Shown here one piece after another: positions 25,818 through 44,773 of a DNA stretch of 64,000 bases (position 1 is its first letter; the number at the start of each line of letters is the position of its first letter). The notes under the pieces are model-generated. The model worked only from the letters and a program-made list of their open reading frames with translations. It had not been told where the DNA came from and did no database searches. This DNA comes from a virus. Taxonomy: Duplodnaviria; Heunggongvirae; Uroviricota; Caudoviricetes. Location of the stretch: positions 12,337-76,336 of IMG/VR virus record IMGVR_UViG_3300031760_000008; one strand, given 5' to 3'. A program made the position numbers and the translations under genes.

Positions 25818-26102
25818 TTAGAACAAAAATTGAGCTAAAGTAGAAACTCCTCTTTTAGTATCTTTCTTTATAGCTTTTTTAGGTTCAAGTTTCTTTTCTT
25901 CTTTAACTTCTTCTTTAATCTCTTCTACTTCAGGAATTTCTTCTTGAATAGGTTCTTCAGCAGCTTCTTCAACAACTTCTTCTACAGGTTCTTCGATTAC
26001 TTCTTCTTTAATCTCTTCTACTTCAGGCTCTGTTGTTTCAACAACTTCTTCTTTAACCTCTTCTATAATTTCTTCCTCTACAACTTTTTTACGTCTAGGC
26101 AT
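25818..26102 (-). CDS. small acidic EEV-repeat protein
   Basis: 94 aa, (EEVxE) repeats similar to acidic tracts of 22227..23372. Confidence 0.4.
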   Translation of the reverse strand: MPRRKKVVEEEIIEEVKEEVVETTEPEVEEIKEEVIEEPVEEVVEEAAEEPIQEEIPEVEEIKEEVKEEKKLEPKKAIKKDTKRGVSTLAQFLF

Positions 26103-26260
26103 AATATCTTTACCTTCCTTTCATAAATATTGTTAATTCGCACAAAATCATAGTTTTAATTAATTTTTACAGTAAAGCTAATACTTTATATATCTAAACT
26201 ATAAAAACAGAGTTAATCTAAAAATATATGAGACAAACCAATATCTTTGATTAACTCTGT

Positions 26261-26271
26261 TAATATTTTAC
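26261..26271 (-). promoter_or_regulatory. conserved promoter-like motif copy
   Basis: 159 nt upstream of ATG 26102. Confidence 0.3.
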
Positions 26272-26287
26272 GTTCAAAAATCTTAAA

Positions 26288-26335
26288 ATCTATAAAAAAT
26301 AAAAAAGCCCGAGAGAAAATCTAAAAACTCTCGAA
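26288..26335 (-). terminator. intrinsic terminator
   Basis: CGAGAG..CTCTCG stem followed on minus strand by GGCTTTTTTATTTTTT. Confidence 0.5.
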
Positions 26336-27050
26336 CTTAAACATAAGGATAAATGAAACGAATGTTTAAAAAAATATAAACACGAACTATTTATATAGGC
26401 CTATTGAGGATTCTAAAACAACTAATCATAATCCTCTGTAGAATGGATATTACCTTCATATAACATATCTCCCGTACTCATTCGTTGTTATACATATCTA
26501 CATGATTTTTAATAAGATTAACTATGAGTATATAAGTTCTTATCTTATTTTAGTTGATTTAAGTATTATTGTAACCTAATACTTTAAGGTAAAGAGTAAT
26601 TAAGGATTCGAACCTTATCTCCTCCGTCGAGGTATTTTTATTCCGATTAAACTATCTTACTCATATATTAATAACATCTTATCTTCCGAAAATTATTGTT
26701 TTTATAGATTCACTAATACAAAACCCTAAATAAGCTGTACCCAATAAAATTAACAAAGGTAAAGATATTATAAAAGACACTAAACTCATTAATAGTATCT
26801 CTATAAAATAAAATATATTTACTAATATATCTAATAAAAATTTCACATACATCATTCCTCTATTTTATAATCAAATTCATATACTATAAATCCTTTATCT
26901 TGAAGATTATTATAAATCTGCTCTAAGGTTAAGGCTTTAATTTCAGGAGATATAGATTTTACTTCTTCTATATCATAAAAACTAAATACATACATACAAC
27001 TTGCTTTAATAGCTTCTTTGACATAATATTCAGCTCTTTTATTAGGATTA

Positions 27051-27882: not shown

Positions 27883-28626
27883 TTAATTTCCTTTCTGTTT
27901 ATTATTAAATTTAATTACATCTTTTATTAGTTCCATATTATATTGATTTGCTATTGCAGGTACATCTTTATTTAAACAATGACTATCCCAAAAAGGAGTA
28001 TCTTCATATACAAAAGTATGTGAAGGATTTACTCTAGGATCTAAAACAAATAATTCTCTTACTTCAGAATAATTAATATCTTCTTCCTTACATATATTAT
28101 AGAAAGCTTGACAGAAACTTACTTTTGTAGCTAAAAAAGAATTCTCCATGAATTTTACAGTTTCAGCTACTTTAGGTTCTACGGATCTAAATATATGTCT
28201 TCCATCATAACAAGGTAATAATATTTGAATTATATCATTACAATCTTTTTTATTACCTCCTAAAATTGTAAAATCAAAATAATAATTATTACAATGTTTA
28301 GTTCCTCCATAATATTCTGGACTAAAAACAATTCTTTTATTTGTTTCTTTAATCAATTTATCAACAGTACCTACAGGACAAGTTGATTTAATACAATAAA
28401 TTTCACAGTTATAATCATTTATACAATTTTTAACTTCTGTTATATCTAATACATTATCTTTTAAGGGAGTATCAACACATATAAATCCTAAATCATATCT
28501 AATATCTTTTATAGTATTTACTTCTGGTTTATATTTATCTACAATATCAGGATTTAGATCTTTTAATTCATTTGCTAAATTATGACCAACTACTCCATAT
28601 CCAATTATTAATACATTTTTCACCAA
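27883..28626 (-). CDS. UDP-glucose/GDP-mannose dehydrogenase family-like protein, short form
   Basis: Rossmann 'IIGYGVVGHNLA'; 'FSPEYYGGTKH' resembles UGDH 'SPEFLREG'; 'ENSFLATKVSF' ; candidate catalytic Cys in 'WDSHCLNKD'; only 247 aa. Confidence 0.55.
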   Translation of the reverse strand: MVKNVLIIGYGVVGHNLANELKDLNPDIVDKYKPEVNTIKDIRYDLGFICVDTPLKDNVLDITEVKNCINDYNCEIYCIKSTCPVGTVDKLIKETNKRIVFSPEYYGGTKHCNNYYFDFTILGGNKKDCNDIIQILLPCYDGRHIFRSVEPKVAETVKFMENSFLATKVSFCQAFYNICKEEDINYSEVRELFVLDPRVNPSHTFVYEDTPFWDSHCLNKDVPAIANQYNMELIKDVIKFNNKQKGN

Positions 28627-28660
28627 TAATATCTACCTCTTTCGTTAAAGTATTATGTAT

Positions 28661-28671
28661 TAATATTTTAC
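28661..28671 (-). promoter_or_regulatory. conserved promoter-like motif copy
   Basis: 35 nt upstream of ATG 28626. Confidence 0.4.
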
Positions 28672-28678
28672 TTATTTT

Positions 28679-29053
28679 TTAACATTGCTTAATTATAGCA
28701 TTGGTATATCTTCTTAATAATTCAGTCATATTTTTTCTACCTACAGGATTAGATGTATGTATTCTAAATTCATTACAAGGTATATTATTTTCTATAATAT
28801 ATTTACAAACATCATATCCAGTTTTTTCTTCTCCTAAATCATGATCTAAACATATTATATCATATCTAAATCTATGTAATTCATGAATAGCTTCATTATA
28901 AGATCTAGCTATAAATGTATGATATTCTCCTATATAATTATTAGGAATTCCTCTTAAATCATCTATCCATAATAAATATTTTTTAGGTTCTTTTCTTTTA
29001 GCTAAATGATCTTCATACCATTTCATAGCAAAATAATTATCAAAATTACTCAT
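28679..29053 (-). CDS. receiver (CheY-like) domain-like protein
   Basis: 'LLWIDD', 'DIICLDHDLGEEKTGYDVCKYI', 'FRIHTSNP' resemble REC-domain acidic pocket, phospho-Asp and Thr positions. Confidence 0.4.
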   Translation of the reverse strand: MSNFDNYFAMKWYEDHLAKRKEPKKYLLWIDDLRGIPNNYIGEYHTFIARSYNEAIHELHRFRYDIICLDHDLGEEKTGYDVCKYIIENNIPCNEFRIHTSNPVGRKNMTELLRRYTNAIIKQC

Positions 29054-30401: not shown

Positions 30402-30923
30402 TTAATCTAAATGTTTCCAGTTTATATTTTTAATTATATTTCTAATTTGTATTCTTGAAACATCATATCTTTTAGCTAAAGCATTAAAACTATTATTTTT
30501 ATCATAAGGAATATATGAAGCTCTAATTTCTTTTATATCTTTTTCAGACAATTTATGCATACCATTATCTTCTCCATAAGGTTTTAACAAATTATGTTCA
30601 ATTGCATGTTGAGTATTGTAAGAATCACTACACCATTCTAAATTATCACTATAATTATTTAATTTATTTCCATCTTTATGATTAATTGTTTTATATTTAA
30701 AAGGATTAGATATAAATGTACAAGCTACCGCTACATGAACTCCTAGATTTATAGCCTTTCCATTTATTTTAGTTACAAATCGATAATAACCGTTTTTATT
30801 TATTACAAATTTTATAAATCTATTAGTTCTTTTACTAAATATTCTTCCTTTATTAGATATATTAAAATATTTAGAATAATCTTTATCTCTATATATCATA
30901 CCTTTCCATAGCTCTTCTTGCAT
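30402..30923 (-). CDS. HNH homing endonuclease (NUMOD4/HNH_3 type with C-terminal HTH)
   Basis: 'NKGRIFS...NGYYRF', 'HKDGNKLNNYSDNLEW' HNH_3 signature; 5 nt from tRNA-Gln. Confidence 0.7.
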   Translation of the reverse strand: MQEELWKGMIYRDKDYSKYFNISNKGRIFSKRTNRFIKFVINKNGYYRFVTKINGKAINLGVHVAVACTFISNPFKYKTINHKDGNKLNNYSDNLEWCSDSYNTQHAIEHNLLKPYGEDNGMHKLSEKDIKEIRASYIPYDKNNSFNALAKRYDVSRIQIRNIIKNINWKHLD

Positions 30924-31147: not shown

Positions 31148-31221
31148 TTGGAGGTACAGATTGGAATCGAACCAATGATCGAGCTTTTGCAGAGCTTTGT
31201 CTTGCCACTTGACTACTGTAC
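31148..31221 (-). tRNA. tRNA-Cys (anticodon GCA), CCA encoded
   Basis: Acceptor GGTACAG/CTGTACC, anticodon loop CTGCAAA, T-arm TGGTTCGATTCCA, discriminator T as in Cys tRNAs. Confidence 0.7.
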
Positions 31222-31255
31222 CATATATCAGAGAGTATCTCTACTCTCTATTTGA

Positions 31256-32743
31256 CTATAATTCTTTTGGTTTTGTTAAATCTTCTTTTTTATCTTCAAC
31301 AGGTTTTGCTCCTAGTTTACCTACAGCATATCCTGCTACTATTGATTTTAAATCTACTCCTAAACTATCTTGAGCTACTTTTAATATCTTATCTATTTTT
31401 TGAGTTCCACTTTCTATTAATTGAGTTGATTGATCTCCATACATTGTAATTGAATCTACATTTGATAATGGAGTAGATACTTCTTTAGCTATATCAGGAA
31501 GTTTATTTATAATCATTTCTACTACTGAAGCTTGTTGCATTTTAGCTTGTGCTTCTGCTTTCTTTTCGATACCTTTTGCTTCTGCAATACCTTTTGCTTC
31601 AATACCAGCTGCTTCAGCTTCTAATTTTGCTTTTATACCATCAGCCTCTGCTACTGCTTTAGCCCTTATAGCTTGAGCTTCTAATTCTGCTGCTTCTTTA
31701 TTAGCTTTTGCTATTTCTATTTTAGCTTGAGCTTCTTGTTTTGCTTTTTCTAGATCAGCTTGAGCATTTTGTATTGTAACTTGTTTTTGAGCTTCTGCAT
31801 TAATTTCTGCTTTATATTTATCTGCATCAGCTTGTTTTCTAACTTCTGCATCTAATTGTTTTTCTCTTAAAGCTACTTCTTTTTCTTTTAATTCTGTTTC
31901 TTTTTCTGTTTTAGCTATTTCAGCAAGAACTGTGTTTTCATTTATAAGCTTTTGTCTTTCAGCTTTTTGTATTTCATAAATAGTATCAGCTTCTGCTTTT
32001 TTCTTATCTTGTTCAATTTGATATTCATATTGTTTTAAAGCTAACTCTTTATTTTGTTTTGCTATTTCAGCTTCTGATGCTGCTTTAGCTTCATTACCTT
32101 CTCTAGCTGCAGCTGCTTGTGCTACTTGAACATCTCTTTCAGCTTGGGCTTTTGCTATTTTAGCATCTTTTTGAATCTTTGATAAATTATCAATACCTAA
32201 ATCATTAATAGCATTATTCTCATCTGTACAAGATTGTACATTTAAGTTTACTATTTCTAATCCTATTGCTTTAATATCGTCTTTAGCATTTTCTTGAATT
32301 TTAGTTGAAAATAATTGTTTGTTATTAACTAAATCTTTAAGATTCATTTGACCAATTATTTCTCTCATGTTACCTTCAAGAACTTGTTGAACATTTCTTG
32401 CAATATATTCAGGATTTTGATTTAGGAAATGTCTTGCAGCTACCTGTATTAATTCAGGATTGTTAGGTATTCTAACATTTGCTACAGCATCTACATCTAC
32501 ATTAATAAAATCAGATGTAGGAACTCTTGATGTCTTAACATCAATTTGAATTAACTCTAAAGTTAATTTATCCACTCTCTCAAAGAATGGGATTCTTAAT
32601 GTTGCTTTACCTATTATTACTCTAGGTTCTTTTTTAAGACCTGATATTAAATATACCATATCTGGTGGACATTTAACATAGCTCATGAAAATTAAACCTA
32701 TCAGCAATATTACAGCAACAGCGATAATGATTGCTAATACCAT
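31256..32743 (-). CDS. SPFH/band-7 flotillin-like membrane protein
   Basis: N-terminal TM (LAIIIAVAVILLIGLIFM), SPFH-like core (..GKATLRIPFFERVDKLTLE..IQID..), then ~250 aa Ala/Glu/Lys/Gln coiled coil (AKAQAERDVQVAQAAAAREGNEAKAA...) typical of flotillin. Confidence 0.75.
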   Translation of the reverse strand: MVLAIIIAVAVILLIGLIFMSYVKCPPDMVYLISGLKKEPRVIIGKATLRIPFFERVDKLTLELIQIDVKTSRVPTSDFINVDVDAVANVRIPNNPELIQVAARHFLNQNPEYIARNVQQVLEGNMREIIGQMNLKDLVNNKQLFSTKIQENAKDDIKAIGLEIVNLNVQSCTDENNAINDLGIDNLSKIQKDAKIAKAQAERDVQVAQAAAAREGNEAKAASEAEIAKQNKELALKQYEYQIEQDKKKAEADTIYEIQKAERQKLINENTVLAEIAKTEKETELKEKEVALREKQLDAEVRKQADADKYKAEINAEAQKQVTIQNAQADLEKAKQEAQAKIEIAKANKEAAELEAQAIRAKAVAEADGIKAKLEAEAAGIEAKGIAEAKGIEKKAEAQAKMQQASVVEMIINKLPDIAKEVSTPLSNVDSITMYGDQSTQLIESGTQKIDKILKVAQDSLGVDLKSIVAGYAVGKLGAKPVEDKKEDLTKPKEL

Positions 32744-32919
32744 TTATCTCTACCTCCAAATAAATAATATTTGCTAGTCTCTCCTAGCAGTCACGTTGCT
32801 ACTTAATGTACTTCTTGCTCAACACAACGTTTGAACGAGACAAAGTTGCCGTGTACACCTGACCTGTAGAAATATCTGAGTTTCACTACAGAGAGGACTC
32901 AAACGCTCATACCTCATAC

Positions 32920-32993
32920 TGGCAGGAGTGGTAAGAATTGAACTCACATTAACGGTTTTGGAGACCGTAGTCCTACCATTGAACGACACTCCT
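32920..32993 (-). tRNA. tRNA-Trp (anticodon CCA), CCA encoded
   Basis: Acceptor AGGAGTG/CACTCCT, anticodon arm ACGGT-CTCCAAA-ACCGT identical to classic Trp arm, T-arm GTGAG-TTCAATT-CTTAC. Confidence 0.8.
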
Positions 32994-33258: not shown

Positions 33259-33795
33259 TTAATCAAATTTATATCTTTTATAAGTAACTATATTATATAT
33301 AGTACTATGAGCTACATTATACATATCTGCTATTTCTTGAATAGACTTACCTTCTTTATATAATCTTCTTATATTTAGGATATCTTCTTTAGTAAATTTC
33401 GTATTAGAATTATTACATCCATTTTGATCTGAATATAAACCATCTTTAGCTGCTTTTTCTGAATTTCCTTTAGGTGTCATCCAATGTAAATTAGTATCTC
33501 TATTATCAGATTTATTATTATTTTCATGATCTACAACGGTTTTATTTATAGGATCGTCATTATCTTTAAATGTCCAAGCTACACATCTATGTATAGGAAC
33601 AGTTAAACTATAATGTTTTCCATCATTATATTTACTTATAGTAACTCTTAAATAACCTTTTTTATCCATATGAGGTTTTCTTATTAATCCAGTTTCTTTA
33701 TTTCTAAAATGTCCAAAATTAGATATTTCGTAACCTTCTATTTCTTTTCCGTTTAATATAGCTTGCTTATATATTTCTTTTTTCAATATAATCAC
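33259..33795 (-). CDS. HNH homing endonuclease (NUMOD4/HNH_3 with C-terminal HTH)
   Basis: 'EISNFGHFRN..GYLRVTIS', 'DHENNNKSDNRDTNLHW', C-terminal 'SIQEIADMYNVAHSTIYNIV'; 4 nt from tRNA-Ser. Confidence 0.7.
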   Translation of the reverse strand: MIILKKEIYKQAILNGKEIEGYEISNFGHFRNKETGLIRKPHMDKKGYLRVTISKYNDGKHYSLTVPIHRCVAWTFKDNDDPINKTVVDHENNNKSDNRDTNLHWMTPKGNSEKAAKDGLYSDQNGCNNSNTKFTKEDILNIRRLYKEGKSIQEIADMYNVAHSTIYNIVTYKRYKFD

Positions 33796-36073: not shown

Positions 36074-36396
36074 ATATAAAAATAGAGTATGATCATAGTG
36101 ATTAGACCATACTCTATTTTGTTGCCTGATTTCATATTTATAGAAAGAATGACTAATTACTATTACTTGATATTCAAGTTCACTGAAGAAACCATACTAG
36201 ATTGTACGGGCCAATTTTGATATGAACTTGTACAAGAATTTAATTTCTTCATAGTAATCAATCTCTCCTCTCTATTATTATTTTACTAACATAAAAATAG
36301 AAATACGGAAATTTATATATCTCATCGGAATTAACCTTGGCAATCGGATATTTTGGATAAAATATTTTTTATATCCGTATTTCTGTCGATATTATA

Positions 36397-37122
36397 TTAT
36401 AAATCTTCTTTATTGTCAACCTGATTTCTATAGATATTACAAATTTCATTTATTTTATATGACATATCAAGTAAGAATTTAGATAATTCTTGGTCTTCCA
36501 TATTAACTAATTTAATTAAAGGAATAGGAAGAATTTCTATAATATCATCTTTCTTTTGTTTTAATTCTTTTTCTTTTTTATCTCTTTCAGATACTACTTT
36601 ATACCAATTAGTATATATTCTACTATGTTCTTCTTTCTTATCTATATCTACTCCTAAATATTTAATAATATCTTTTAATATTCGTAATTCTGCAAAATGT
36701 TCTTCTAAATTATCACAGCATCCTTGACAATTATCTAACATCATATCTAGGTCCATATATCTAAATTCTAATTCTTCTCTTATTTTATTTTTAGCTTGTT
36801 CATCTAATATATCTTCTTTTTTAGTTTTATCTCCTTTAGGATTATCTAATATTTTTAGTTCTAAATTAATTAAATCAATATCATTATAAATACTTACTAA
36901 AGGTTCATCATCTTCATTTATAAAATTACCTGAATTAAAATCATATTCATAAATATAACCTTTAGGATCAGTAACAAATAAAGGAGATTTTATTTTATTT
37001 TCTTTTATTAGTTTTAGTAACTCTAACCATTTATAAGTATTCTTATTACCTTGTACAGATTTTATCATAATTGTAAACGGATCTGTTTCAGGACCAAAAT
37101 TAATCCCACCGATATCACTCAC
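36397..37122 (-). CDS. hypothetical protein (241 aa)
   Basis: ORF with Cys cluster 'CQGCCDNLEEHF'. Confidence 0.4.
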   Translation of the reverse strand: MSDIGGINFGPETDPFTIMIKSVQGNKNTYKWLELLKLIKENKIKSPLFVTDPKGYIYEYDFNSGNFINEDDEPLVSIYNDIDLINLELKILDNPKGDKTKKEDILDEQAKNKIREELEFRYMDLDMMLDNCQGCCDNLEEHFAELRILKDIIKYLGVDIDKKEEHSRIYTNWYKVVSERDKKEKELKQKKDDIIEILPIPLIKLVNMEDQELSKFLLDMSYKINEICNIYRNQVDNKEDL

Positions 37123-42979: not shown

Positions 42980-43151
42980 GATAATTTTCCTCCTTTTAAA
43001 TTTGTAATTTATATTTAAATTACAGCTAATATTCTTATTTAATAATTTTTTGGTTTTTATACTGACCACCAGTTGTTTCTAATATCTTTAAAAACTATAT
43101 ATTCATTAATCTCATTAAATATCTTTTAAATGATTTTAATTCCTAATCTAA

Positions 43152-43162
43152 TAATATTTTAC
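43152..43162 (-). promoter_or_regulatory. conserved promoter-like motif copy (second variant copy at 43197-43213)
   Basis: 173 nt upstream of chosen capsid ATG 42979. Confidence 0.35.
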
Positions 43163-44698: not shown

Positions 44699-44762
44699 AC
44701 TTAGTTCTCCTCTTTTCGTATACTAAATTTAGATAGATTTAGAGCATACTCTTATCTATCAA

Positions 44763-44773
44763 TAATATTTTAC
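44763..44773 (-). promoter_or_regulatory. conserved promoter-like motif copy
   Basis: 65 nt upstream of ATG 44698. Confidence 0.4.

What the first reader, a model, noticed from the sequence alone, without database searches (positions are those of the whole stretch)
31256..32743. Phage-encoded flotillin/SPFH membrane-microdomain protein embedded between tRNA islands
The 495-aa product has an N-terminal TM helix, an SPFH-like core and an Ala/Glu/Lys/Gln coiled coil of about 250 aa, the architecture of bacterial flotillins (FloT/YqiK). The gene is GC-richer than its neighbours and flanked by tRNA-Cys and tRNA-Trp, suggesting horizontal acquisition from the host. A phage flotillin could reorganise host membrane rafts during assembly or lysis, act in superinfection exclusion, or counter membrane-associated defence systems.
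Basis: partly seen in the sequence, partly recalled or inferred. Interest (0 to 1): 0.6.

Follow-up and report, generated by a model that had tools for sequence, protein, structure and literature searches.

The report
Flotillin gene in rumen T4-like phage
A large T4-like phage from ruminant gut metagenomes carries a genuine, well-conserved flotillin (a membrane-scaffold protein) gene; similar genes are already annotated in other phages, nobody knows what they do there, and the claim that this one was recently taken from the host is not supported.

Summary
Window 31256-32743 (minus strand) encodes a 495-aa protein with an N-terminal TM helix, an SPFH/Band_7 domain (Pfam E 7.6e-23), a roughly 200-aa Ala/Glu/Lys/Gln helical hairpin and a flotillin-type C-terminus. 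It aligns with human flotillin-1 over residues 23-439 (E 2e-56). tRNA-Cys and tRNA-Trp flank it.

It is phage-encoded. The window is a T4-like myovirus (gp23, prohead protease, baseplate, sheath), and several independent ~200-kb assemblies have the same context.

Recent capture from the host is not supported:
- GC3 is 0.081, below the window mean of 0.100. The extra GC sits in codon position 1 (Ala/Glu codons).
- The tRNA and HNH flanks are lineage-specific.
- The nearest bacterial flotillins are only 44-50% identical.
- Within the phage clade dN/dS is 0.07-0.25.

The flotillin is 73-90% identical between phages whose virion proteins are 23-33% identical (major capsid protein 70% in one case). 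This suggests phage-to-phage exchange or strong constraint.

No NfeD partner, defence-family hit or canonical late-promoter motif was found. The likely mechanism is a membrane-anchored SPFH cage on the host membrane; its role in infection is inferred only. SPFH and flotillin genes are already annotated in other phages, so this is a new member of a known kind and of modest interest.

The parts
31256..32743 (-). Flotillin-family SPFH protein gene (495 aa plus stop)
   Evidence: ORF. Pfam Band_7 and Flot. NCBIfam FloT model, 257 bits. Human flotillin-1, E 2.4e-56. Best Foldseek matches are the flotillin complexes 9l3g and 9bq2, E about 1e-23. An identical protein occurs on 11 contigs, up to 205 kb long.
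32678..32743 (-). N-terminal membrane anchor, residues 1-22 (MVLAIIIAVAVILLIGLIFMSY)
   Evidence: Hydropathy 3.4 over 19 residues. AlphaFold2 helix 2-21 with pLDDT about 90. A TM helix followed by SY[VI]KCPPD is conserved in all clade members. YVKC is not a lipobox, so the PHROG 200 label 'lipoprotein' does not apply here.
32129..32677 (-). SPFH/Band 7 domain, residues 23-205
   Evidence: Pfam PF01145, E 7.6e-23. Modelled as a beta/alpha domain with pLDDT 85-94. Residues 23-205 fall within the 23-331 stretch that aligns to flotillin-1 residues 3-313.
31544..32128 (-). Ala/Glu/Lys/Gln-rich helical hairpin (CC1/CC2), residues 206-400
   Evidence: 67% A+E+K+Q and no proline. Modelled helices 178-277 and 292-427. 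Aligns with the coiled-coil region of flotillin-1.
31259..31543 (-). C-terminal flotillin-type segment, residues 401-495, containing the conserved LP motif (L415 P416)
   Evidence: The Pfam Flot match (residues 376-435) ends in this segment. Query residues 362-439 align with flotillin-1 residues 308-385. P416 is invariant and L415 nearly invariant across 52 homologues. The tail after about residue 428 has low pLDDT.
32753..32757 (-). Shine-Dalgarno GGAGG, 9 nt upstream of the ATG
   Evidence: Read directly from the sequence.
32772..32789 (-). Hairpin immediately upstream of the RBS, followed by GCAAATATTATT
   Evidence: Terminator-like hit. The stem is kept by compensatory changes in the sister genome L002 (TGCTAG/CTAGCA versus GTCTG/CAGAC). 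The following bases resemble, imperfectly, the phage's promoter motif. Its function is not established.
32920..32993 (-). tRNA-Trp (CCA), upstream flank (context)
   Evidence: ARAGORN and Rfam. It is identical, together with the 175-nt spacer, in L002.
31149..31222 (-). tRNA-Cys (GCA), downstream flank (context)
   Evidence: ARAGORN and Rfam. Conserved in L002.

Best explanation
The gene encodes a genuine flotillin-subfamily SPFH protein of a T4-like myovirus of about 205 kb from ruminant-gut metagenomes.

Shown here:
- The domain architecture is TM anchor, SPFH domain, CC1/CC2 helical hairpin and flotillin C-terminus.
- It is homologous to eukaryotic flotillin-1/2 and to bacterial FloT-type proteins.
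- It lies inside a phage genome.
- It is under purifying selection across a clade of T4-like phages.
- Its codon composition is phage-like.
- There is no NfeD partner and no canonical copy of the phage's structural-gene promoter motif.

Inferred from the family: every structurally solved SPFH protein returned by the fold search as a membrane assembly (flotillin-1/2, HflK/C, stomatin, prohibitin, erlin, QmcA-YbbJ) forms a large ring or dome on a membrane. The phage protein therefore most likely inserts its N-terminal helix in the host cytoplasmic membrane with the SPFH domain on the cytoplasmic face. It would then homo-oligomerise into a closed cage that fences off a membrane patch.

Inferred from context: it is probably made before or independently of the late structural genes. 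It sits in a 7.6-kb tRNA/small-ORF block headed by a consensus sigma-70-type promoter.

Most likely role (speculative, about 0.3): a host-like maintenance function. After host shut-off, the phage copy would replace or augment the host flotillin. This would keep membrane-bound processes and membrane integrity going until programmed lysis.

The overall confidence given (0.6) is a blend: identity as a phage flotillin about 0.95, cage formation about 0.7, the specific maintenance role about 0.3.
For: Identity and architecture.

Phage origin:
- T4-like hallmark genes lie on both sides, on the same strand: Gp23, Peptidase_S77, T4_baseplate, gp25, gp13, sheath.
- An identical gene sits in the same context in independent assemblies of 105-205 kb.

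Conservation:
- More than 100 protein clusters at 72-100% identity, on contigs up to 211 kb.
- dN/dS of 0.07-0.25.
- A conserved position after Tmk-ThyX/ThyA-SpoVG(-dUTPase), 4-6 kb upstream of Portal_T4, in relatives of about 130 kb.

Cage inference: the top fold matches are the flotillin complexes 9bq2 and 9l3g, followed by stomatin, HflK/C, prohibitin, QmcA-YbbJ and erlin assemblies.

Timing inference:
- The motif GTAAAATATTAWTR occurs 22 times against 2.1 expected, always on the coding strand and mostly in gaps upstream of structural genes.
- None lies between 28671 and 36273.
- A perfect TTGACA-17-TATAAT promoter sits at 36419-36391.
Against: - No experiment or expression data exist.
- Oligomerisation could not be modelled. 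The AlphaFold2 monomer has pTM 0.42 and low confidence after residue 428.
- The perfect sigma-70 match is expected 0.2 times by chance, and 19 of 100 shuffles had one.
- A degenerate look-alike of the late-type motif sits 20 nt upstream of the ATG, so late expression is not excluded.
- The maintenance role is only one of several equally untested roles.
- The host is unknown, so whether it has its own flotillin is unknown.
Confidence: 0.6

Rival explanations
1. FtsH-directed cage. Like HflK/C, which encloses FtsH hexamers, the phage flotillin captures or modulates the host membrane protease FtsH. This would protect phage proteins or rewire host proteolysis.
For: HflK/C-FtsH complexes are among the structural matches (7wi3, 9cz2). 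From established knowledge, HflK/C controls lambda CII stability through FtsH, and B. subtilis FloT/FloA interact with FtsH. The gene stands alone without NfeD, so a host partner is plausible.
Against: The protein is of the flotillin type, not the HflK/HflC type. The hflC model scores only 28.9 bits against a cut-off of 134. No FtsH-related gene or known FtsH substrate is linked to it. The host is unknown.
Confidence: 0.15
2. Superinfection exclusion or inter-phage competition. The membrane cage alters the membrane, or sequesters a membrane factor needed for DNA entry by secondary phages.
For: In the Vi01-like phage PhiSH19 an SPFH/Band 7 ORF lies next to an annotated superinfection exclusion gene (PMC3220722). 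The probable non-late expression context fits.
Against: There is no similarity to any known exclusion or defence protein: PADLOC gave no hit. High conservation across divergent phages and dN/dS of 0.07-0.25 are atypical of fast-evolving exclusion genes. The adjacency in PhiSH19 is a single anecdote in a distant SPFH family.
Confidence: 0.1
3. Counter-defence. The cage stabilises the membrane against, or sequesters, the membrane-disrupting effectors of abortive-infection systems.
For: Only general plausibility. Many defence effectors target the membrane. SPFH proteins are linked to the membrane-stress (PspA) response in B. subtilis (PMC8581546, found).
Against: No anti-defence homology and no linkage to known anti-defence genes.
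Confidence: 0.1
4. Virion-associated or assembly scaffold protein. It would be packaged, or would organise membrane-bound prohead initiation.
For: SPFH-domain proteins were detected by virion mass spectrometry in Erwinia jumbo phages (PMC7760394, PMC6034870). The gene lies between capsid and neck/tail modules here, and 4-6 kb from the portal gene in relatives.
Against: It lacks the canonical promoter motif that precedes many structural genes in this window, including gp23, the prohead protease and the tape measure. It is embedded in a block of tRNAs and small ORFs. An integral membrane anchor is unusual for a tailed-phage virion protein. The Erwinia proteins belong to other SPFH families; tblastn at E 1e-3 does not find them.
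Confidence: 0.07
5. One reading: a recently host-derived island, marked by higher GC and tRNA flanks.
For: Raw GC is 0.302 against 0.22-0.25 for adjacent ORFs. tRNAs and HNH homing endonucleases flank it. Flotillins are ultimately cellular genes, and bacterial ones are the sister groups in a rough NJ tree.
Against: - GC3 is 0.081, at or below the phage mean. The excess lies only in codon position 1.
- The best bacterial relatives are 44-50% identical.
- The gene is conserved across the phage clade.
- The tRNA/HNH flanks are absent in other carriers.
Confidence: 0.04

Closest known systems
Eukaryotic flotillin-1/flotillin-2 complex (PDB 9bq2, 9l3g)
   Same: It is homologous over SPFH, CC1, CC2 and the C-terminal segment: phmmer E 2.4e-56 with query residues 23-331 and 362-439 aligned. 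These are the best Foldseek matches, at 28% identity over about 450 columns.
   Different: The phage protein has a true N-terminal TM helix rather than a hydrophobic hairpin with acylation. A single gene suggests a homo-oligomer, not a flotillin-1/2 hetero-oligomer. Oligomer size and shape were not tested.
Bacterial flotillins FloT (YuaG) and YqiK (NCBIfam NF058507)
   Same: The length and architecture match. The FloT model aligns end to end (protein 41-472 to model 52-475 of 477, E 3.4e-76). The nearest cellular relatives (44-50% identity) are chromosomal genes of gut bacteria.
   Different: The score of 257 bits is far below the equivalog cut-off of 700, so it is not a FloT orthologue. No NfeD-family gene is adjacent or detected in the window. 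It is encoded by a lytic-type T4-like phage.
HflK/HflC-FtsH and other SPFH cages (QmcA-YbbJ, stomatin, prohibitin, erlin)
   Same: It shares the SPFH fold plus a coiled-coil wall (Foldseek E 1e-9 to 1e-12). A cage-forming membrane scaffold is the common mechanism.
   Different: These are different SPFH subfamilies with much shorter coiled coils (the hflC model scores 28.9 bits against a cut-off of 134). No FtsH or NfeD linkage was seen here.
SPFH/flotillin genes already annotated in phages
   Same: These are phage-borne SPFH membrane proteins of unknown role:
- csAssE-Sib 'flotillin family protein' WOZ57345.1 (566 aa, Band_7 plus Flot).
- Sinorhizobium jumbo phage Phosso, SPFH protein.
- PHROG 200.
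- T4-like 44RR ORF098c, Aeh1 ORF064c and RB43 ORF139c (PMC1524935).
- Vi01-like, RaK2-like and Eneladusvirus phages.

At least 198 IMG/VR stretches, the best 80 lying on 80 different contigs, encode full-length flotillin relatives at 40-75% identity.
   Different: Identity to csAssE-Sib is about 30% (over query residues 18-183, within the SPFH domain), and 24% to Phosso over residues 22-169. The SPFH ORFs of cultured T4-like phages are too distant for tblastn at E 1e-3. No DNA match exists in GenBank phages. This clade is specific to ruminant and gut T4-like phages.

Membership tests
SPFH (Band 7) superfamily | SPFH/Band_7 domain detectable above the curated threshold | tested here: met
   PF01145, 81.9 bits against a cut-off of 23.6, E 7.6e-23, residues 48-202. 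The modelled fold matches SPFH structures.
Flotillin subfamily | C-terminal flotillin region: a long Ala/Glu-rich coiled coil plus a conserved C-terminal segment after the SPFH domain | tested here: met
   Alignment with flotillin-1 spans residues 23-331 and 362-439 (E 2.4e-56). The FloT model is aligned end to end. PF15975 Flot scores 25.9 bits, 1.1 bits below its cut-off for this sequence, but is on record for nearly all clade relatives.
Flotillin subfamily | N-terminal membrane anchor placing the SPFH domain at the cytoplasmic membrane face | tested here: met
   One hydrophobic helix at residues 1-22, conserved in the clade. The orientation is inferred, not tested.
Flotillin subfamily | Assembly into large oligomeric domes or foci that delimit membrane microdomains | not testable with these tools
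   Only a monomer could be modelled. The inference rests on homology to 9bq2 and 9l3g.
Bacterial FloT equivalog (NCBIfam NF058507) | Score at or above the curated equivalog cut-off (700 bits) | tested here: not met
   257.2 bits. It is a flotillin-family member but not a FloT orthologue.
Bacterial SPFH-NfeD operon | An adjacent NfeD-family membrane protein gene | tested here: not met
   - No NfeD Pfam hit within +/-10 kb in precomputed annotations.
- None among the window's predicted membrane proteins.
- None among the 25 families shown of the 31 found in a scan of 72 window ORFs. The 6 hidden families were not seen, so a weak hit is not excluded.
- No recurrent TM neighbour in 80 viral loci.
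Known anti-phage defence proteins (PADLOC-DB) | Match to a defence-system model | tested here: not met
   No PADLOC family at E <= 0.01.
T4-like (Straboviridae-type) myovirus, for the surrounding genome | T4-type capsid, prohead protease, baseplate, neck and sheath genes | tested here: met
   Gp23 (E 1.2e-21), Peptidase_S77, T4_baseplate and GPW_gp25. Phage_T4_gp13. Sheath, PHROG 23. Portal_T4 in relatives.

The most novel reading that the evidence does not exclude
Flotillin cages are a widespread, horizontally exchanged tool of large gut and rumen phages. They would take control of the host membrane by enclosing host FtsH or membrane-targeting immune effectors. That would make this a new class of membrane-level host-takeover or anti-defence scaffold. 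The flotillin and the truncated UDP-sugar-dehydrogenase-like gene would then travel between phage lineages as a cassette.
Probability: 0.12. Interest if true: 0.75.

Novelty: new member of a known kind. Interest (0 to 1): 0.3.

Why it matters
Phage-encoded SPFH and flotillin proteins have been annotated since 2006, but in the papers found here none has been assigned a function.

This clade shows that a full-length flotillin is kept under purifying selection. It is more conserved than virion proteins across divergent T4-like phages. It also has hundreds of relatives in large uncultured phages. That makes it a reasonable candidate for asking what bacterial flotillin cages actually do, because a phage presumably needs only one specific effect from them.

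As a genome feature it is a correct but unsurprising annotation. The specific evolutionary inference attached to it, recent host capture flagged by GC and tRNAs, does not hold.

Tried and rejected
- **DNA similarity to GenBank phages:** no match.
- **PADLOC defence models:** none.
- **NfeD partner:** not found.
- **Recurrent neighbours across 80 IMG/VR loci:** only clade-specific synteny (AAA_33 kinases upstream, PIN/PhoH downstream in one clade). A PspA-like-looking neighbour in L045 and L047 gave no Pfam hit.
- **T4 late promoter TATAAATA:** uninformative in this AT-rich genome, with 49 matches against 38 expected.
- **Conserved GC-rich spacers after tRNA-Trp and tRNA-Cys as small structured RNAs:** fold z-scores of 0.7 and 0.1 and no Rfam hit, so rejected.
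- **NJ tree of 193 flotillins:** star-like with long branches and no support values, built mostly from unlabelled metagenomic sequences. It was used only qualitatively: the window clade is monophyletic, its sisters P0121 and P0126 are bacterial, and viral sequences are scattered.
- **GTDB genome scan:** returned only three loci. At least one is a mis-binned phage contig, the RUG12194 'Erysipelotrichaceae' contig of 124.8 kb with phage genes. No host was identified.
- **Lipoprotein reading (the PHROG 200 label):** rejected, because YVKC is not a lipobox and the Cys is the conserved start of the SPFH domain.
Full report
**1. Observation**

The window carries a 1488-nt ORF on the minus strand at 31256..32743 (495 aa, ATG start). 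A GGAGG Shine-Dalgarno sequence lies 9 nt upstream.

The protein has four parts:
- one very hydrophobic N-terminal stretch, residues 1-22;
- a Pfam Band_7/SPFH domain, residues 48-202 (E 7.6e-23, 81.9 bits against a cut-off of 23.6);
- a proline-free segment, residues 206-400, that is 67% Ala+Glu+Lys+Gln;
- a C-terminal part that hits the Pfam Flot model just below threshold (25.9 against 27 bits).

The NCBIfam FloT model aligns end to end at 257 bits, far below its equivalog cut-off of 700. phmmer against PDB sequences finds human flotillin-1 at E 2.4e-56, with query residues 23-331 and 362-439 aligned.

An AlphaFold2 model built from 52 homologues has mean pLDDT 75.7. It shows a TM helix (2-21), a beta/alpha SPFH domain, two long helices (178-277 and 292-427) and a poorly defined tail. 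Its best Foldseek matches are the two flotillin complex structures 9l3g and 9bq2 (E about 1e-23). Stomatin, HflK/C, prohibitin, QmcA-YbbJ and erlin follow.

tRNA-Cys (31149-31222) and tRNA-Trp (32920-32993) flank the gene. Every descriptive element of the finding is therefore correct.

**2. It is phage-encoded**

All long ORFs but one (16151-16606, plus strand) lie on the same strand. They include Gp23 major capsid protein, Peptidase_S77 prohead protease, T4_baseplate, gp25, Tail_P2_I, gp13 and a sheath.

The identical protein occurs in the same context on independently assembled contigs of 105-205 kb from different samples. Close relatives (72-100% identity) form more than 100 protein clusters on contigs up to 211 kb.

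Record names point to ruminant gut, for example a RUG rumen MAG and water-deer caecum. There is no nucleotide match among 50,697 GenBank phage records.

**3. The horizontal-transfer argument**

The gene's GC (0.302) exceeds that of the ORFs next to it (0.22-0.25). It is only about one SD above the window's gene mean (0.270 +/- 0.030), and seven other genes are at or above 0.30. The excess is confined to codon position 1 (GC1 0.526, 14% Ala). GC3 is 0.081, below the mean of 0.100. The local GC peaks in the profile coincide with the tRNA genes. Composition therefore gives no sign of recent import.

The flanks are a variable zone. The two HNH/NUMOD4 homing endonuclease genes (30402-30923 and 33259-33795) are absent from nearly identical genomes. 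In those genomes the tRNA set is also partly different.

Phages of about 130 kb carry a 72-76% identical flotillin. There the gene follows Tmk-ThyX/ThyA-SpoVG(-dUTPase) and lies 4-6 kb upstream of Portal_T4, with no tRNA within 8 kb in the one such locus scanned (L008).

The nearest proteins outside the clade are 44-50% identical. Three of the four whose contigs I examined are bacterial chromosomal genes, with contexts of SecA/DAHP synthase, DnaX/RecR/GlmU, and two-component/ABC genes. The fourth is another phage.

Within the clade dN/dS is 0.07-0.25.

So the gene is a long-resident, selected phage gene. Recent capture from the host is not supported.

**4. Evidence for transfer between phages**

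The flotillin is 73-82% identical between the window phage and the ~130-kb phages. The only shared virion proteins in the fetched loci are 23-33% identical. In the one IMG/VR contig found with both queries, the flotillin is 90% identical and the major capsid protein 70%.

A truncated UDP-glucose/GDP-mannose-dehydrogenase-like gene (27883-28626) shows the same high identity, 75-78%. It is adjacent or close to the flotillin in three lineages.

This discordance suggests exchange of the gene, perhaps as a cassette, between phage lineages. The alternative is unusually strong constraint. Whole-genome trees are needed to decide.

**5. Context and probable expression**

Aligning the upstream gaps revealed the motif GTAAAATATTAWTR. 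It has 22 hits with at most one mismatch, all on the coding strand, against 2.1 expected. It typically sits after a hairpin plus T-run, 20-60 nt upstream of structural genes such as gp23, the prohead protease and the tape measure. By analogy with T4 late promoters it is probably this phage's late promoter.

No copy lies between 28671 and 36273. That 7.6-kb block holds seven tRNAs, small ORFs, a CxxCxxCC protein, the HNH genes and the flotillin. The block is headed by the window's only perfect TTGACA-17-TATAAT (36419-36391). This match is expected 0.2 times by chance, so it is suggestive only. A one-mismatch copy of the motif sits at 36273-36286.

Directly upstream of the flotillin RBS is a hairpin (32789-32772). 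Its stem is preserved by compensatory changes in a sister genome. It is followed by GCAAATATTATT, an imperfect look-alike of the motif.

I infer, without proof, that the gene is transcribed with the tRNA block, early or middle or constitutively, rather than as a canonical late structural gene.

**6. Partners**

- No NfeD-family gene, the usual operon partner of bacterial SPFH genes, was found near the gene. None appeared among predicted membrane proteins or in a Pfam scan of 72 window ORFs, where 25 of the 31 families found were visible.
- PADLOC gave no defence-family match.
- Neighbour clustering across 80 viral loci found only clade-specific synteny and no recurrent functional partner.

**7. 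Mechanism**

Shown: this is a membrane-anchored flotillin homologue maintained by selection in phages.

Inferred from the family: it assembles into a large cage on the cytoplasmic face of the host membrane and fences off a membrane patch. This is the behaviour of the solved flotillin, HflK/C, stomatin, prohibitin, erlin and QmcA-YbbJ assemblies that the fold search returned.

My preferred role is host-like membrane maintenance or organisation during infection after host shut-off, at about 0.3. The rivals are listed in the Rival explanations section with their evidence:
- FtsH capture or modulation;
- superinfection exclusion;
- protection from membrane-targeting abortive-infection effectors;
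- an assembly or virion role.

None can be discriminated computationally here.

**8. Comparison with what is known**

SPFH/Band 7 ORFs were already listed in T4-like phages 44RR, Aeh1 and RB43 in 2006 (PMC1524935). They were also reported in Vi01-like phages (PMC3220722) and in RaK2-like, Eneladusvirus and other jumbo phages, where some were seen in virion mass spectrometry (PMC7760394, PMC6034870).

A full-length 'flotillin family protein' is annotated in the complete gut phage csAssE-Sib. At least 198 IMG/VR stretches, the best 80 on 80 different contigs and many of those over 100 kb, encode full-length relatives. In GenBank phages, only 9 records have tblastn-detectable relatives of this SPFH domain.

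The papers I found state that the function in phages is not understood.

**9. Verdict**

The annotation is real and correct, and the gene is a new member of a known kind. Its evolutionary interpretation needs correcting. Interest is modest (0.3). It rests mainly on the breadth and conservation of flotillins in large uncultured phages and on the open question of their role.

Noticed in passing
window 10587-12503 (-): A 638-aa ORF next to the putative tape measure carries four Dockerin_1 stretches (Pfam E 7.9e-26) and five DxNxDG calcium loops. A dockerin-bearing protein in the tail module of a rumen phage could bind cohesins of a cellulosome-producing host or particle. This may be a host-range clue.
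   Followed up: partly
window, 22 sites, e.g. 43149-43162, 44760-44773, 16035-16048, 19852-19865, 52515-52528, 56271-56284, 60573-60586 (-): The motif GTAAAATATTAWTR has 22 hits against 2.1 expected, all on the coding strand. Most lie in gaps upstream of structural genes; several of those inspected follow a hairpin plus TTTTTAT. It is probably this phage's late promoter and differs from T4's TATAAATA.
   Followed up: partly
window 30402-30923 (-) and 33259-33795 (-): Two HNH/NUMOD4 homing-endonuclease genes bracket the tRNA-flotillin-tRNA core. Both are absent from near-identical genomes (L002, L003), where other tRNAs (e.g. Asn) occupy the site. This is a zone where endonuclease genes and tRNAs are swapped.
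   Followed up: yes
window 27883-28626 (-): This is a truncated UDP-glucose/GDP-mannose-dehydrogenase-like protein (247 aa, against about 390-450 aa for the solved enzymes). It has a shortened Rossmann domain and the central domain but no C-terminal domain. It is 75-78% identical in divergent phages and adjacent or close to the flotillin in L005 and L008, so it may be co-transferred. It has its own late-type motif at 28658-28671.
   Followed up: partly
window 28679-29053 (-): A stand-alone cREC_REC (cyclic-phosphate processing receiver) domain protein of 124 aa (Pfam E 5e-25, PHROG 1479). Its function in a phage is unknown.
   Followed up: no
window 36391-36419 (-): This is the only perfect TTGACA-17-TATAAT in the 64 kb (0.2 expected by chance). 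It lies at the 3' end of ORF 36397-37122 and points into the tRNA-Pro/tRNA-Ser cluster and the block that contains the flotillin.
   Followed up: partly
window 32772-32789 (-): A hairpin 15 nt upstream of the flotillin Shine-Dalgarno sequence has compensatory stem changes in sister genome L002. It could be a leaky terminator of the tRNA transcript, a processing or stabilising element, or part of a degenerate promoter.
   Followed up: partly
window 25818-26102 (-): A 94-aa ORF is made almost entirely of Glu/Val/Ile/Pro repeats (EEVxEE...). It lies in a roughly 950-nt gene-poor stretch (about 26103-27050).
   Followed up: no
L012 1054-2163: An unrelated phage carries a 47%-identical flotillin. 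It also has a ThyX gene interrupted by an intein, plus Mom, QueC and Lar-like genes. This indicates that flotillins occur in several unrelated large-phage lineages.
   Followed up: no
L005 (GTDB record CACYRE010000001.1, RUG12194): A 124.8-kb contig binned as an 'uncultured Erysipelotrichaceae' MAG carries the phage flotillin (82% identity), the dehydrogenase-like gene, tRNAs and virion-protein homologues. It is most likely a phage genome mis-binned as bacterial.
   Followed up: partly
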